Source: Corallococcus exiguus (lineage in GTDB: Bacteria > Myxococcota > Myxococcia > Myxococcales > Myxococcaceae). Taken from it: a stretch of 64,000 nt of DNA. Under the pieces are notes generated by a model that saw nothing but the letters and a program-made list of their open reading frames with translations, was not told the origin of the DNA and made no database searches. Position 1 is the first letter of the stretch, and every line of letters starts with the position of its first letter. Of the stretch, positions 40,003-46,133 are shown piece by piece. The position numbers were made by a program, and so were the translations under genes. Location of the stretch: NCBI RefSeq assembly GCF_012985275.1, contig NZ_JABEKY010000003.1; one strand, given 5' to 3'.

Positions 40003-40101
40003 GGTAGGGCCTCCGGACCTGGTGGCCGGCCCGGTCTTCAAAACCGGTGAGGGGCTGCGAGAGCAGTCCCTGGCGAGTTCGATTCCCGTGCCCTACCGCC
40101 A
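40003..40101 (+). tRNA. selC: tRNA with anticodon UCA and long variable arm: tRNA-Sec (selC)-like
   Basis: There is an 8-bp acceptor stem (GGTAGGGC / GCCCTACC), a D arm CCGG-ACCTGGTGG-CCGG, an anticodon stem CCGGT/ACCGG with loop cTTCAaa (U33, anticodon TCA, A37), an 8-bp variable-arm hairpin GGGGCTGC-GAGA-GCAGTCCC, a T loop TTCGATT, a discriminator G and an encoded CCA. The T-stem has one A-C mismatch. The 3' 58 nt are duplicated 6 kb downstream, typical of tRNA genes used as integration sites. Confidence 0.6.
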
Positions 40102-40104
40102 ATA
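40047..40104 (+). repeat. attL-like 58-bp direct repeat (3' half of the tRNA-Sec gene); second copy at 46076-46133
   Basis: GTGAGGGGCTGCGAGAGCAGTCCCTGGCGAGTTCGATTCCCGTGCCCTACCGCCAATA is identical at both positions by direct reading. Confidence 0.85.
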
Positions 40105-40212
40105 CTTCCGAGGGGTTACGCCCCCGTACTGCCACCTTGGCAGTACCGGACTCGTCCACACGCGTCCGCATGAGTCTACCCGACGTCGTTAGCGTGTCGT
40201 TAGCGGACGGCG

Positions 40213-41127
40213 CTATGGGAACGTCACATTCCCGAGTGTAACTGTGCGGGGGCCGGCCTCCTCCCATAGCTTCAGGGCGAAGGTTGCTCGGGATGACGCC
40301 AGAGTGGATTCGGCCTCCACAACGACAAGGCCTGAAACGCCGGGCGTGATGGGCTCCCTCTGCCACACTCGCAAAACCTTCAGCTCCTCACCTGTCTTGC
40401 TCTTAAGCGTCGCGCCTATTGCCGACCACGGCGGGGCACCAGCTTTCACGGAGAGCCAGACCTCCACCGCCACCCGCCAAGTAGATCGGTAGGCCTGGAG
40501 CTTGGTTGCCTCGACGCCACTGCCAGACACCTGGGAGATTGCCTTGCTCAAGATGCGTACTGACACGCCCTCAGCATCCATGGCCCCTGTAGAAATGAGC
40601 CCTGTCAGCCCACCGGGCGCAGCACGCTCAGCAATCAGTCGGGCATTCTCTTCTTGGTAACGCAACGCAACCGCGCGAGCTTCCCGCGCTTCCTGCTGAT
40701 ACGTCTCTATTGTCCTCTTCTCGCGATACACCTCGACTAGAGGCTCTGCTCTCGCGGGATGCACCTTCAGCAGGAACGACGCGTTCGCAGGCGCTGCACC
40801 ATCTCGGAAGCGAACCGTCAGAAGAAACCGTTCGCCCGGGGCAACCTTCGATGATGGCATCACACGAATTACGGTTTGCCCTGCATCCAAAATGGAAAAG
40901 GACTCACGGCCCTCTAGCGTCACCGCATCGCGCACAAGCTCAGCGTCGAAGAACAGACCGGTTGAGAGGCCAGGGCTAACAATAATCTCCGGCGCTGCCT
41001 GAACACCTTCCGGCAGCAGCTCAATGCGGCGGATCGCCTGCACTGAAACCGCGGAATCGGCCTCTGCGAGGGCGACTCCACTCCGCAGCACGAACCCCAG
41101 GAGAAGAACCCAGATACGCGAAGACAC
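40213..41127 (-). CDS. DUF2381 / TIGR02268-like myxobacterial paralogous-family protein (secreted), immediately downstream of a Ser/Thr kinase
   Basis: It has a signal peptide MSSRIWVLLLGFVLRSGVALA, is 304 aa, and sits directly after a kinase gene, which is the known context of this family in M. xanthus. The family assignment is by recollection of family features, not alignment. Confidence 0.6.
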   Translation of the reverse strand: MSSRIWVLLLGFVLRSGVALAEADSAVSVQAIRRIELLPEGVQAAPEIIVSPGLSTGLFFDAELVRDAVTLEGRESFSILDAGQTVIRVMPSSKVAPGERFLLTVRFRDGAAPANASFLLKVHPARAEPLVEVYREKRTIETYQQEAREARAVALRYQEENARLIAERAAPGGLTGLISTGAMDAEGVSVRILSKAISQVSGSGVEATKLQAYRSTWRVAVEVWLSVKAGAPPWSAIGATLKSKTGEELKVLRVWQREPITPGVSGLVVVEAESTLASSRATFALKLWEEAGPRTVTLGNVTFP

Positions 41128-41153
41128 GCTGCGGTTACTCCTGAGTGGACATG

Positions 41154-44914: not shown

Positions 44915-45139
44915 CACGAGCACCGCCCCCCGCGGTGAGGCCACTTGCATCACCTCCAATCGCGCCCTGGAGGAGTGGCCGCCGCTGTTGGTGACGCACT
45001 GCTGGCCAGCGCCGCCATGGACCGGCTGCTGCACCACTCCCACGTCCTCACCATCGAGGGTGACAGCTACCGCAACCCGCCACTCGCCAAGCGCACCCAC
45101 GCACCGCGCGCGGCCCAGGTCGAGACTCCCGCACGCTGA
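44915..45139 (+). pseudogene. remnant of the IS21-family istB helper-ATPase C-terminus (frameshifted fragment)
   Basis: Two adjacent frames translate to ...[20 protein letters not shown]... and ...[27 protein letters not shown]. Together these match the IstB C-terminal consensus (...iiTSNrpfeeW...[10 protein letters not shown].i.GeSYRlk) with a frameshift near 44990. No istA and no upstream istB part are present. Confidence 0.55.
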
Positions 45140-45648
45140 CACCTGGCGGAGCCCCTGCCGGACCGGTTTGGCCGAACCCGCGCGGTCCACGCCGTCACGC
45201 TTCCCGGGCTCCTCACGTCCGGACCTCATTGGCCGGACCGAACAGCGACCTGATTAGCCGAGCCTTGACACGAAGGCGGAGCGGGCCACCACGTTTGACG
45301 AACTCCGCGAGGCGGGTGAGCGCTACGGCAAGGTCATGGGCCGCAACGCGGCGCGCGCGTTCGCCATGTTGGCAACGGCCGCCCTTGGGAACACGGCGGC
45401 GGGGCTGGGGTCGAAGGTGCCAATGCTCCCAGGCGCCGCGCAGGCGGCGGTCCAGGCCTCCACAACACCGAGAACCTCATCCCACTGGACAAGAGCCTGC
45501 ACAGCGACGTCAGCGCGTTCTTCTCGTCGATTCGACGCGATATCACCGGCTCGCCATTGACCGTACGGCAATGGTTGAGCACGCAGTCCTACGAGGACCA
45601 ACGTGACTTCGGGCTTCTGGCCATTGAGAACGTCGGAAAGGGGCTCTG

Positions 45649-46002
45649 GTGATGAAGTTGCAGGACCTTGTCGAGCAGTTCGTCGAGGACGTAGTCGCGC
45701 AGAACGAGGCCATCTTCCGGGGAGACGCCAAGACGGGAAACAAGCACGCCAGGAAGTACGGTGCCGCCGTCGATAAGCTCCTGGCCCACGGCAATGCCGG
45801 ACGTGACGCTCTCGCCGTACTGCTCAAGCATGAGCGCATGGACGTGCGCGTGATGGCTGCCGCGCATCTGCTCCGCTATCGGACGGCCGAAGCCAAAGCG
45901 GTCCTGGAGGAAGCGGCCAAGGGGCAGGGGCTGGTCCCGTTCGGAGCGCAGCAGGCATTGAAACGCTGGGAAGAAGGAACCTGGGCGCTCGATCCTGAGT
46001 AG
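45649..46002 (+). CDS. small hypothetical protein, predominantly helical (immunity-protein-like; family not recognised)
   Basis: It is 117 aa with coding-like composition. A GTG/ATG start overlaps the stop of an upstream frameshifted ORF (45336-45650), which suggests a degraded two-gene module. Confidence 0.4.
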   Translation: MMKLQDLVEQFVEDVVAQNEAIFRGDAKTGNKHARKYGAAVDKLLAHGNAGRDALAVLLKHERMDVRVMAAAHLLRYRTAEAKAVLEEAAKGQGLVPFGAQQALKRWEEGTWALDPE

Positions 46003-46075
46003 TTCTGATCGTGGCTGAGGAGGCCATGGCGCGCGCGGGCATCTCCGGCGCGCAGTTCACGGCTTTCACCGGTCC

Positions 46076-46133
46076 GTGAGGGGCTGCGAGAGCAGTCCCT
46101 GGCGAGTTCGATTCCCGTGCCCTACCGCCAATA
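46076..46133 (+). repeat. attR-like 58-bp direct repeat (partial tRNA-Sec 3' end, no 5' half)
   Basis: This is the second identical copy of the 58-mer. The upstream sequence does not form the 5' half of a tRNA. Confidence 0.85.

What the first reader, a model, noticed from the sequence alone, without database searches (positions are those of the whole stretch)
40003..46133. tRNA-Sec-like gene used as an integration site: 58-bp direct repeat delimits a 6-kb island carrying a kinase/DUF2381 cassette
A tRNA with anticodon UCA and a long variable arm is followed 6 kb later by an exact 58-bp copy of its 3' half (from the anticodon stem to just past the CCA). This is the classic attL/attR signature of a site-specific integrative element; selC is a known island hot-spot in enterobacteria. 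The island carries two Hanks-type kinases plus a DUF2381-family gene, a cassette that is massively paralogous in M. xanthus. It also carries an IS21 istB remnant and degraded small ORFs, but no integrase. That suggests an old, immobilised island and a route by which kinase cassettes spread. An unusually AT-rich promoter-like stretch lies at about 44545-44580.
Basis: seen in the sequence. Interest (0 to 1): 0.7.

Follow-up and report, generated by a model that had tools for sequence, protein, structure and literature searches.

The report
Decayed mosaic island at tRNA-Sec hotspot
A selenocysteine tRNA gene in this Corallococcus genome is a much-used landing site for mobile DNA, and the 6 kb between it and a 58-bp copy of its 3' end is an immobile patchwork left by old insertions and deletions, which is an ordinary kind of feature.

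Summary
A real tRNA-Sec gene lies at 40003-40101, and an exact 58-bp copy of its 3' part lies 6,029 bp downstream at 46076-46133. The integration-site reading is supported. Conserved gene order in eight Corallococcus genomes stops at the tRNA 3' end. Two species carry a tyrosine integrase about 110 bp after the tRNA. Two strains 99.6-99.8% identical to the window carry a further element (a prophage, a BREX island) between the tRNA and this island, leaving a 69-bp partial tRNA.

The claim that the island brought in the kinase/DUF2381 cassette is not supported. Myxococcus xanthus has the same cassette and spacer after its tRNA-Sec, so the linkage predates the genus split. The segment is a mosaic:
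- Left 4.6 kb: DUF2381, a receptor kinase, a remnant of deleted Xre regulator genes, a likely pseudokinase and a truncated small ORF.
- Right 1.4 kb: debris, namely an IstB remnant, a SitA5 toxin remnant, a DUF2019 ORF (likely orphan immunity) and an Imm11 gene tail fused to the repeat.

No integrase remains. This is a new example of a known kind of feature, of modest interest.

The parts
40003..40101 (+). tRNA-Sec gene (selC equivalent), anticodon UCA, long variable arm. It is the attB-bearing target.
   Evidence: ARAGORN. Rfam RF01852 at 70.5 bits against a gathering score of 47. Four pairs kept through changes on both sides across five Myxococcaceae copies.
40047..40104 (+). Proximal copy of the 58-bp direct repeat (attL core region). 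The natural att identity is 69 bp, 40036-40104.
   Evidence: Exact repeat. Homology of sister loci L021 and L022 to the window begins at 40036 and 40033, and their partial tRNA copy spans tRNA positions 34-102, 69 bp.
40185..40205 (+). Tandem GTCGTTAGC(G) motif, two copies 11 bp apart, in the spacer between tRNA-Sec and the DUF2381 stop codon. It is conserved into M. xanthus. It may be an arm-type recombinase site, which is inference only.
   Evidence: Motif search. Spacer sequences.
40213..41127 (-). DUF2381 / TIGR02268 family protein, 304 aa, with an N-terminal signal peptide and low GC3 (0.64).
   Evidence: Pfam PF09544 at 139.5 bits. TIGR02268 at 268 bits against a cutoff of 76. GC3. The AlphaFold model (pLDDT 82) shows two beta-sandwiches and a long helix, and its best PDB matches are VirB9, TrwF and DotH.
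41154..43004 (-). Receptor-type Hanks Ser/Thr kinase K1, 616 aa. It has an intact G-loop, VAIK-type lysine, HRD..N and DFG motifs, a hydrophobic stretch consistent with one transmembrane helix at about residues 364-390, and a C-terminal domain of about 225 aa predicted to be periplasmic.
   Evidence: Pfam Pkinase at 138.5 bits. Sequence and hydropathy. Allelic divergence is confined to the non-kinase part.
43190..43313 (+). 3' remnant (about 40 codons) of an Xre-type HTH regulator gene. A deletion of about 636 bp relative to KYC2213 removed a first Xre gene and the HTH domain of this one.
   Evidence: Alignment with L001. Translation. L001 HTH_3 hit. Two HTH genes are called in L020.
43318..44487 (-). 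Kinase-like K2, 389 aa, soluble. The catalytic loop reads HRDVNPRH and DFG is replaced by NFG, so it is probably a pseudokinase.
   Evidence: Pfam Pkinase at 94 bits, matching from profile position 42. Motifs read from the sequence.
44545..44580 (.). AT-rich (28% GC) palindrome TTTAnAGTCC-N6-GGACTnTAAA upstream of K2, followed towards K2 by a conserved GC-rich hairpin. It is a candidate operator and leader. No sigma-70 consensus was found.
   Evidence: Conserved in KYC2213, L023 and M. xanthus. Promoter scan found 0 sites.
44587..44856 (-). Small ORF with a hydrophobic C-terminal stretch. Only 44587-44701 is homologous to the intact gene of KYC2213 and L023. 44701 is a rearrangement breakpoint.
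   Evidence: Alignments. L001 ORFs. tblastn with the L023 95-aa protein.
44949..45139 (+). IS21 IstB C-terminal remnant with a frameshift, and no IstA.
   Evidence: Stitched peptide against Pfam PF01695 gives 54.3 bits at profile positions 190-232 of 238. A 54-aa IstB_IS21 gene is called in L021.
45270..45652 (+). Remnant of a SitA5-family polymorphic toxin gene in two reading frames: the last 43 positions of the escort domain and part of an unclassified C-terminal toxin domain. Its stop codon overlaps the next ORF's start.
   Evidence: NCBIfam NF050093 SitA5_escort at 67 bits, E = 1.7e-18, profile 220-262 of 262. Longer remnants in L022 and L023 score 115-127 bits. tblastn.
45649..46002 (+). 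DUF2019 ORF, 117 aa, apparently intact. By position it is the cognate SitI-type immunity gene, now orphaned.
   Evidence: Pfam PF09450 at 27.1 bits against a cutoff of 23.3. It is 97% identical to the L023 gene. C. aberystwythensis has an internally deleted copy about 100 bp after its tRNA-Sec.
45999..46078 (+). 3' tail (about 25 codons) of an Imm11-family immunity gene, fused directly to the distal repeat. The joint explains why the repeat is 58 bp and not 69 bp.
   Evidence: tblastn with L022 Imm11 gives 59% over 34 aa, E = 2.7e-4. Three-way alignment. Imm11 gene is called in L022.
46076..46133 (+). Distal 58-bp partial tRNA-Sec copy (attR).
   Evidence: Exact repeat. The same copy is present in L021, L022 and L023.
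46261..46833 (+). Right flank: the N-terminal 190 codons of an Acyl_transf_3 gene that is 400 aa and intact in L023. It is cut by an IS4-family element and the rest of the gene is absent.
   Evidence: Pfam PF01757. L023 400-aa gene. Homology to L023 ends at 46815.
46816..48144 (-). IS4-family insertion sequence (transposase 46830-47882), outside the repeat-bounded segment.
   Evidence: DDE_Tnp_1 at 80 bits. NF033592 IS4 at 135 bits against a cutoff of 115. Candidate terminal inverted repeats at 46809-46830 and 48123-48144.

Best explanation
The 58-bp repeat is the surviving distal att site (attR) of site-specific integration into the 3' part of the tRNA-Sec gene. This gene is a recurrently used attB in Corallococcus and Myxococcus. 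The 5,971 bp between the two copies is not one element. It is a non-autonomous mosaic.

The tRNA-proximal 4.6 kb holds DUF2381, receptor kinase K1, the remnant of a deleted Xre pair, pseudokinase-like K2 and a truncated small membrane ORF. This module has sat next to tRNA-Sec since before Myxococcus and Corallococcus diverged.

The att-proximal 1.4 kb holds the IstB remnant, the SitA5 toxin remnant, the DUF2019 immunity-like ORF and the Imm11 tail. It is what is left of the right end of an integrase-bearing element, or of several. In sister genomes that family of elements carries sitA5/sitI modules next to its att arm.

Deletions, at least one probably linked to IS21, removed the integrase, any intervening att copy, the att arm and 11 bp of the att itself. 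The segment therefore cannot excise. The tRNA copy of the att remains a live target, as shown by a prophage and a BREX island integrated there in near-identical strains.

Shown directly:
- The tRNA and the repeat.
- The break in gene order at the tRNA.
- Integrases at this tRNA in relatives.
- Tandem arrays with 69-bp partial tRNAs.
- The ancient cassette-tRNA linkage.
- The identities of the remnants.

Inferred:
- The order of events.
- That the two ends come from different elements.
For: (1) The tRNA-Sec gene and the exact repeat are real.

(2) Upstream gene order is conserved at 79-94% DNA identity in L001-L006, L017 and L018. It ends at 40101-40117 in all of them except KYC2213.

(3) C. 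llansteffanensis and C. interemptor have a 381-aa tyrosine recombinase about 110 bp after the tRNA, plus a DUF3854/DUF5906 primase-helicase.

(4) Strain AB032C (L021) is 99.65% identical to window 40036-51127. In place of the full tRNA it has a 69-bp partial tRNA. Beyond that lie an integrase (phrog_1, 8e-11; 44% identical to the L006 integrase), a DNA methyltransferase, a DNA polymerase A and a tail protein.

(5) L022 is 99.8% identical to the window and shows the same pattern with a PglW / MmeI-type BREX-like island. A metagenome contig repeats the prophage arrangement.

(6) L023 has a 6.04-kb version of the island with a 68-bp distal copy, one Xre gene, an intact small ORF, no IstB remnant and an intact acyltransferase.

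(7) The 166-bp att flank and the sitA5 remnant of L023 are 91-93% identical to the right end of the L022 element. Paired TACCCAAG motifs lie next to the att in L006, L022 and L023, with one exact copy in L017.

(8) M. xanthus has tRNA-Sec, the same spacer and the same cassette in the same neighbourhood.

(9) The remnants are identified. The breakpoint at 44701 lies inside a gene.

(10) Composition departs from the backbone: 57-64% GC at 40.2-41.8 kb against about 70%, and DUF2381 GC3 of 0.64 against 0.93.
Against: - No empty site was recovered for the segment as a whole. The acyltransferase flank is rare: only two partial metagenome homologues, and the attR-flank junction was not found in metagenomes.
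- It is unresolved how an anciently tRNA-linked module came to lie between the two att copies. One route needs a distal att beyond the extended cassette region. I could not look for one more than 10 kb out in KYC2213 or more than 8 kb out in M. xanthus. The other route needs a homology-facilitated illegitimate replacement of the left part of an integrated element.
- The arm-site reading of the TACCCAAG and GTCGTTAGC pairs is inference from position only.
- No excision or integration activity was tested.
Confidence: 0.72

Rival explanations
1. Single-element reading. One 6-kb integrative island carrying the DUF2381/kinase cassette as cargo entered tRNA-Sec, created both repeats and later lost its integrase.
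For: - The cassette lies between two att copies in the window, L021, L022 and L023.
- DUF2381 and the 3' part of K1 have atypical composition.
- The cassette is absent within 10 kb of tRNA-Sec in six other Corallococcus species.
- A tandem GTCGTTAGC pair next to the tRNA could be a left-arm site.
Against: - The same cassette, spacer and neighbourhood follow tRNA-Sec in M. xanthus and in KYC2213, where gene order continues into fn3 and M15 genes with no repeat within 10 kb.
- The right end matches the right end of a different, BREX-carrying element.
- The candidate arm motifs at the two ends differ.
- The joint at 44701 cuts a gene.
Confidence: 0.15
2. The cassette region is an ancient, much larger att-bounded island running from DUF2381 to fn3 and beyond, fixed before the genera split. 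The window's 6 kb is its internally deleted form. Its right end was swapped after a second element integrated in tandem at the distal att and a deletion fused the two. This is one specific route within the mosaic model.
For: - It explains the cassette lying between att copies without any translocation.
- The three bases ATA after CCA are shared by the cassette flank and the attR flank, unlike CT or TG in other species.
- Tandem integration at this att is observed directly.
- The GTCGTTAGC pair is conserved across genera at a distance from the tRNA end (about 85-95 bp) similar to the TACCCAAG pair in L006 (about 70-80 bp).
Against: - No distal att was seen within 8-10 kb in M. xanthus or KYC2213.
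- The extended region has near-backbone GC3 of 0.85-0.91.
- The region holds no integrase.
Confidence: 0.3
3. The distal copy arose by local, non-integrative duplication of a tRNA fragment, or is a chance repeat.
For: KYC2213 carries most of the segment without a nearby repeat.
Against: - The repeat is an exact 58-mer, and 0.00 chance matches are expected.
- The copy spans exactly the 3' tRNA portion that integrases use.
- The same att is occupied by integrase-bearing elements in relatives and in near-identical strains, which have 69-bp copies.
- Mobile-element and toxin-immunity debris sits next to the copy.
Confidence: 0.03

Closest known systems
selC (tRNA-Sec)-associated genomic islands of Enterobacteriaceae (LEE, PAI-I of UPEC 536, SHI-2) and tRNA-Sec-integrating Pf phages of Pseudomonas
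   Same: - A tRNA-Sec gene serves as attB.
- The island is flanked by a direct repeat of the tRNA 3' part.
- Different elements use the same site in different strains.
- Decayed islands without a working integrase are common.
The enterobacterial islands are from my own knowledge; the library papers I saw only as search listings (PMC7549136 for Pf phages; PMC6408774, PMC12632120).
   Different: - The host is a myxobacterium.
- The integrases found here are a local family (L006, L017, L021) that gave no match in the phage collection when the L021 integrase was searched.
- Cargo in relatives is a BREX-type defence system, a primase-helicase and sitA5/sitI modules, not virulence genes.
- Part of the att-bounded DNA is anciently linked to the tRNA.
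Tandem accretion of integrative elements at one tRNA att site
   Same: AB032C and JABELA010000063 show the tRNA, then a new element, then a 69-bp partial tRNA, then the old island, then a 58-bp partial tRNA.
   Different: In the window itself only the old, degraded unit remains. One internal att copy is inferred to have been lost.
SitA/SitI polymorphic lipoprotein toxin-immunity cassettes of myxobacteria (SitA5 family)
   Same: - The match is to the end of the SitA5 escort domain, followed by a C-terminal domain and a small overlapping downstream ORF.
- sitAI loci are known to be numerous and to ride on prophages and other mobile elements (PMC5562445, PMC10047993).
   Different: - Only the last 43 of 262 escort positions survive.
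- There is no lipoprotein signal and the reading frame is broken, so no toxin can be made.
- DUF2019 has not been shown to be a SitI.
STPK / HTH-Xre / DUF2381 gene clusters of M. xanthus (clusters containing MXAN_3182 and MXAN_4374; MXAN_4371-4373 and MXAN_4479-4481 kinase/Xre genes)
   Same: The architecture matches: DUF2381, a kinase, Xre gene(s) and a kinase-like gene. In M. xanthus such clusters change expression strongly between yellow and tan phase variants and were proposed to regulate phase variation (PMC3986340; bioRxiv 10.64898/2026.08.28.747804).
   Different: - The window's copy has lost both Xre genes.
- I did not map which MXAN cluster is the positional orthologue.
- No function has been shown for DUF2381.
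IS21 (IstA/IstB)
   Same: The C-terminal IstB motif region is recognisable.
   Different: It covers 43 of 238 profile positions, is frameshifted, and has no IstA and no detected ends. It is a fossil.

Membership tests
tRNA-Sec (Rfam RF01852) | Score above the family's gathering threshold, with a UCA anticodon and a long variable arm | tested here: met
   70.5 bits against 47. Anticodon tca. A 9-bp variable-arm stem is kept through compensatory changes.
tRNA-Sec (Rfam RF01852) | Selenocysteine machinery (selA, selB, selD) present in the same genome | not testable with these tools
   Only a 64-kb window is available, and no sel gene was noticed in it. The tRNA is conserved, with covariation, across Myxococcus and Corallococcus, which suggests it is in use.
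tRNA-targeting integrative island (att-bounded) | Direct repeat made of the 3' part of the target tRNA at the distal boundary | tested here: met
   Exact 58 bp. Sister loci have 68-69 bp.
tRNA-targeting integrative island (att-bounded) | Site-specific recombinase gene inside the element | tested here: not met
   No PF00589 hit on any ORF between the repeats. tblastn with the L006, L017 and L021 integrases gave E >= 1.6 over the whole window.
tRNA-targeting integrative island (att-bounded) | Gene order with relatives breaks at the tRNA 3' end | tested here: met
   Homology ends at 40101-40117 in L002-L006, L017 and L018.
tRNA-targeting integrative island (att-bounded) | An empty site (tRNA directly followed by the right flank) exists in a relative | tested here: inconclusive
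   None was found among 30 loci. The acyltransferase flank has only two distant partial homologues, and the junction was not found in metagenomes. The prophage-free and BREX-free state of the same att is the window itself.
tRNA-targeting integrative island (att-bounded) | The whole att-bounded segment is absent from, or foreign to, related lineages | tested here: not met
   The left 4.6 kb follows tRNA-Sec in KYC2213 and, as an orthologous cassette, in M. xanthus.
SitA5 polymorphic toxin (NCBIfam NF050093) | Full escort domain above the curated cutoff, with an N-terminal lipoprotein signal | tested here: not met
   67 bits against a cutoff of 160, covering only profile positions 220-262 of 262. 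No upstream ORF carries a lipobox, and the frame is broken.
SitA5 polymorphic toxin (NCBIfam NF050093) | A cognate immunity gene immediately downstream | tested here: inconclusive
   The DUF2019 ORF start overlaps the toxin remnant's stop codon. Immunity function rests on position only.
IS21 IstB (PF01695) | Complete AAA+ IstB next to IstA, between IS ends | tested here: not met
   Only profile positions 190-232 of 238 are present, with a frameshift.
DUF2381 / TIGR02268 | Score above the curated cutoff over the full length | tested here: met
   268 bits against 76.15, profile 2-295 of 295. PF09544 at 139.5 bits.
Hanks-type Ser/Thr kinase | Catalytic motifs: G-loop, VAIK lysine, HRDxKxxN and DFG | tested here: met
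   K1 has GQGGFG, ALK, HRDVKEAN and DFG. K2 has HRDVNPRH and NFG and lacks a matched N-lobe start, so K2 is kinase-like and probably inactive.

The most novel reading that the evidence does not exclude
The DUF2381 / receptor-kinase / Xre / pseudokinase module is the domesticated left arm of a very old tRNA-Sec-integrating element, kept across Myxococcus and Corallococcus because it works as a polymorphic sensing system. Three observations point this way:
- A tandem GTCGTTAGC pair sits where a recombinase arm site would be.
- Secreted DUF2381 has VirB9-like beta-sandwich domains.
- Within one species, DUF2381 and the predicted periplasmic half of K1 diverge together (86-90% amino-acid identity) while the flanks stay 97-100% identical.

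On this reading, tRNA-linked mobile DNA seeded the paralogous STPK/DUF2381 clusters that have been linked to phase variation.
Probability: 0.1. Interest if true: 0.6.

Novelty: new member of a known kind. Interest (0 to 1): 0.3.

Why it matters
- It identifies tRNA-Sec as an integration hot-spot in Corallococcus and Myxococcus, used by at least three kinds of element: a prophage, a BREX-type defence island and an integrase plus primase-helicase element. Their integrases are related, and sitA5/sitI kin-discrimination modules sit at the element ends. This is useful for annotating myxobacterial accessory genomes and for choosing a neutral integration site.
- It corrects a tempting inference. Lying between att repeats does not make a gene cassette cargo. 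Here the cassette's linkage to the tRNA is older than the genera.
- The mechanism itself, tRNA-targeted integration followed by decay, is textbook biology.

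Tried and rejected
- Exact-sequence look-ups of window proteins failed, so the window's own assembly seems not to be indexed. In addition, DNA references with GTG or TTG starts translate to V or L. Cluster members were used instead.
- IMG/VR scans found nothing, either with the 30-nt tRNA 3' end or with DUF2381.
- The L021 integrase has no match in the phage collection.
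- An empty-site search through acyltransferase homologues returned only two short metagenome fragments. The attR-flank junction is absent from metagenome contigs.
- An attempt to walk further along KYC2213 using the 892-aa neighbour returned only two partial proteins on short contigs. The question of whether a distal att lies beyond the fn3 region stays open.
- The PADLOC hits of K1 and K2 (PD-T4-6, mad6, MkoA) cover mainly the kinase domain and come with no partner genes. I do not read them as evidence for a defence system.
- The sigma-70 consensus scan found no promoter in 39900-46400. The AT-rich stretch is better described as a conserved palindrome.
- The Rfam E-value search of 39000-47500 found nothing besides the tRNA.
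- Local duplication of the tRNA fragment was considered and rejected (see rival explanations).

Full report
**1. The observation**

ARAGORN finds one tRNA in the window: tRNA-SeC, anticodon tca, at 40003-40101 on the + strand. Rfam's tRNA-Sec model matches 40003-40097 at 70.5 bits against a gathering score of 47, E = 2.9e-13. Five Myxococcaceae copies keep four base pairs through changes on both sides, in the anticodon stem and the long variable arm. The gene therefore looks functional.

An exact 58-nt direct repeat lies at 40047-40104 and 46076-46133, 6,029 bp apart. It runs from the end of the anticodon stem to 3 nt beyond the CCA. A short-word BLAST finds no third copy in the window, exact or degenerate.

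**2. What lies between the repeats**

GC3 filtering and profile searches give the following, from left to right:

| Coordinates | Strand | Feature | Evidence |
|---|---|---|---|
| 40213-41127 | - | DUF2381 / TIGR02268 protein with a signal peptide | PF09544 139.5 bits; TIGR02268 268 bits |
| 41154-43004 | - | Receptor-type Hanks kinase K1: all catalytic motifs, one predicted transmembrane helix, C-terminal domain of about 225 aa | |
| 43190-43313 | + | About 40-codon tail of an Xre-type regulator gene | |
| 43318-44487 | - | Kinase-like K2: catalytic loop HRDVNPRH, NFG in place of DFG, so probably a pseudokinase | |
| 44545-44580 |. | AT-rich palindrome | |
| 44587-44856 | - | Small ORF with a hydrophobic C-terminal stretch | |
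| about 44949-45139 | + | Frameshifted IstB C-terminal remnant | PF01695 54 bits, profile 190-232 of 238 |
| 45270-45652 | + | SitA5-family polymorphic toxin remnant in two frames | NF050093, E = 1.7e-18, last 43 of 262 escort positions |
| 45649-46002 | + | DUF2019 ORF; its start overlaps the toxin remnant's stop | |
| 45999-46078 | + | Last roughly 25 codons of an Imm11-family immunity gene, fused directly to the distal repeat | |

There is no recombinase. Pfam found none. tblastn with the three integrases found at this tRNA in relatives gave nothing better than E = 1.6.

Outside the repeat, an Acyl_transf_3 gene is cut after codon 190 by an IS4-family element at about 46816-48144. Next comes serC.

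**3. Is the repeat an att scar?**

The window comes from Corallococcus, close to C. exiguus. The DUF2381 protein is identical to NNB92575.1.

- *Break in gene order.* In eight Corallococcus loci found through the upstream methyltransferase, gene order is conserved for 10 kb and stops at the tRNA 3' end (40101-40117). Each genome has different DNA after that point.
- *Integrases in other species.* C. llansteffanensis and C. interemptor have a 381-aa tyrosine recombinase about 110 bp after the tRNA, plus a DUF3854/DUF5906 primase-helicase.
- *Tandem array in AB032C.* Corallococcus sp. AB032C (L021) is 99.65% identical to window 40036-51127, but where the window has the full tRNA it has only a 69-bp partial copy that starts in the anticodon loop. 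Beyond that copy lie an integrase (44% identical to the L006 type), a RuvC-like gene, a DNA methyltransferase, a DNA polymerase A and a tail protein.
- *Tandem array in a second strain.* C. exiguus JABELA010000063 (L022, 99.8% identical) shows the same pattern, with an island carrying PglW (954 bits) and an MmeI-type methyltransferase.
- *A metagenome contig* repeats the prophage arrangement.

These are classical tandem arrays at one att site. With respect to those elements, the window is the unoccupied state. The att reading is well supported, and local duplication is not.

**4. Is the kinase/DUF2381 cassette the island's cargo?**

The evidence says no, or at least that this is not shown.

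- C. coralloides KYC2213 shares window 40105-44701 at 89-92% identity. It then continues into unrelated genes (a 167-aa protein, an M15 peptidase, an fn3 protein of 800 aa, and proteins of 260 and 892 aa) with no second tRNA copy within 10 kb.
- M. xanthus CP017170.1 has tRNA-Sec followed by the same roughly 110-bp spacer, including a tandem GTCGTTAGC pair. After that come DUF2381, a 613-aa kinase, two Xre genes, a 387-aa kinase and, further on, an fn3 protein. GroEL, a response regulator and TPR-Zincin lie upstream, as in the window.
- Amino-acid identities between the window and M. xanthus are 54-65% for the cassette and 70-90% for the backbone genes.

The tRNA-cassette junction therefore predates the split of the two genera.

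**5. Evidence for a mosaic**

C. exiguus JAFIMT010000003 (L023) has a cleaner 6.04-kb version. It holds a full tRNA, DUF2381, K1, one Xre gene, K2, an intact 95-aa small ORF, a sitA5 remnant, DUF2019, a 166-bp flank, a 68-bp partial tRNA and an intact 400-aa acyltransferase.

- That sitA5 remnant and the 166-bp flank are 91-93% identical to the right end of the BREX-type element in L022.
- Paired TACCCAAG motifs, 11 bp apart, sit in that flank. The same pair sits beside the middle att of L022 and just after the tRNA in L006, next to its integrase; L017 has one exact copy there.
- The cassette side carries a different pair, GTCGTTAGC.
- The window shares homology with KYC2213 and L023 only up to 44701, inside the small ORF. 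The IstB remnant follows.
- The window has also lost both Xre genes through a deletion of about 636 bp.
- The att arm and 11 bp of the att are gone too, through the joint with the Imm11 tail.

The two ends of the 6-kb unit thus have different histories. The unit has been shaped by several deletions.

**6. Most likely account**

tRNA-Sec is a recurrent attB for a family of related tyrosine integrases. The distal repeat is the attR of an old integration. The element's recombinase and most of its body are gone. Its toxin-immunity tail survives as debris, with DUF2019 possibly still useful as an orphan immunity gene.

How the ancient cassette came to lie between the att copies is unresolved. There are two routes:
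- The extended cassette region is itself a very old att-bounded island, and a second element integrated in tandem and was then fused to it by deletion.
- Homology-facilitated illegitimate recombination replaced the left part of an integrated element with DNA carrying the tRNA and the cassette.

Recombination in this segment is seen directly. Between the window and L023 the backbone is 97-100% identical and the K1 kinase domain 97%. DUF2381 is 86% identical, and the transmembrane and predicted periplasmic parts of K1 are 74-89%.

**7. The cassette itself**

- DUF2381 has a signal peptide. Its AlphaFold model (pLDDT 82) shows two beta-sandwich domains joined by a long helix.
- Foldseek's best PDB matches are VirB9, TrwF, DotH and CagX (E = 7e-9; per-domain TM-score 0.62-0.68; whole-chain TM-score about 0.3). 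This is a fold resemblance, not membership.
- The architecture of DUF2381, a kinase, Xre gene(s) and a kinase-like gene recurs at other loci.
- In M. xanthus, such clusters change expression strongly between yellow and tan variants and were proposed to regulate phase variation (PMC3986340; bioRxiv 10.64898/2026.08.28.747804).
It is a palindrome, TTTAnAGTCC-N6-GGACTnTAAA, upstream of K2. It is conserved in KYC2213, L023 and M. xanthus and is followed by a conserved GC-rich hairpin. It is a plausible operator for the Xre proteins that the window has lost. No sigma-70 consensus was found.

**8. Comparison, novelty and verdict**

tRNA-Sec (selC) islands and tandem accretion at tRNA att sites are well known. 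The enterobacterial islands are from my own knowledge; the Pf-phage and E. coli island papers I saw only as listings. sitAI cassettes on mobile elements are also known (PMC5562445, PMC10047993).

This is a new member of a known kind, in a myxobacterial setting. The integration-site interpretation is supported. The claim that the cassette is cargo and shows a route of spread is not. Interest is modest (0.3).

The open point worth a follow-up is whether the conserved cassette is the domesticated arm of an ancient element. A scan of complete genomes for further partial tRNA-Sec copies would settle it.

Noticed in passing
window 40213-43004, compared with L023 8133-10915: Within what looks like one species (backbone proteins 97-100% identical), DUF2381 is only 86% identical. 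The transmembrane and predicted periplasmic parts of kinase K1 are 74-89% identical, while the K1 kinase domain is 97%. A recombination breakpoint therefore lies inside K1, and the secreted protein and the kinase ectodomain diverge together, as in polymorphic recognition loci.
   Followed up: partly
window 40213-41127: The AlphaFold model of DUF2381 (pLDDT 82) has two beta-sandwich domains and a long helix. Foldseek's best PDB matches are the T4SS core proteins VirB9, TrwF, DotH and CagX (E = 7e-9; per-domain TM-score 0.62-0.68). No other T4SS gene is nearby.
   Followed up: partly
window 44487-44600: Between the AT-rich palindrome and the K2 start codon lies a conserved GC-rich inverted repeat, CTCCTCGGGAGG...CCTCCCGAGGAG. 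It contains a GGAGG and is also present in M. xanthus, so it may be a regulatory 5' leader hairpin.
   Followed up: no
window 46816-48144 and 48435-49541: An IS4-family element (transposase 46830-47882; candidate terminal inverted repeats at 46809-46830 and 48123-48144) truncates the acyltransferase, and the rest of that gene is missing. The next gene is serC (485 bits), a core metabolic gene, followed by a Myxococcales family-1 sigma-70 factor.
   Followed up: partly
L006 11034-11132, L024 9149-9247, L004 11012-11110: The tRNA-Sec variable arm differs in C. llansteffanensis and M. xanthus, and the anticodon stem differs in C. aberystwythensis. All changes are compensatory. In L006 the variant arm sits next to an integrated element and could derive from that element's attP.
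   Followed up: no
L002 14459-14634: C. carmarthensis has a degenerate copy of the att flank and partial tRNA (76% identical to the L023 attR region) about 3.5 kb after its tRNA-Sec. It bounds low-GC3 ORFs, so this is another decayed islet at the same site.
   Followed up: no
L004 11214-11414: C. aberystwythensis carries the same junction of toxin end and DUF2019 start, with an internal deletion, about 100 bp after its tRNA-Sec. Further on it has an eCIS_core-domain protein and glycosyl- and methyltransferases.
   Followed up: partly
window 51627-54359 and 55871-58312: Downstream lie a further 910-aa Ser/Thr kinase with PD40/WD40-like repeats, and an 813-aa AAA ATPase with a weak Pvc16_N match. 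Neither was examined further.
   Followed up: no
window 40185-40205, and L006 11203-11221: Two different tandem 8-9-mer pairs, each spaced 11 bp, lie about 70-95 bp after the tRNA end. GTCGTTAGC occurs in all cassette flanks, including M. xanthus. TACCCAAG occurs next to the integrase-bearing elements. The geometry suggests arm-type recombinase sites.
   Followed up: partly
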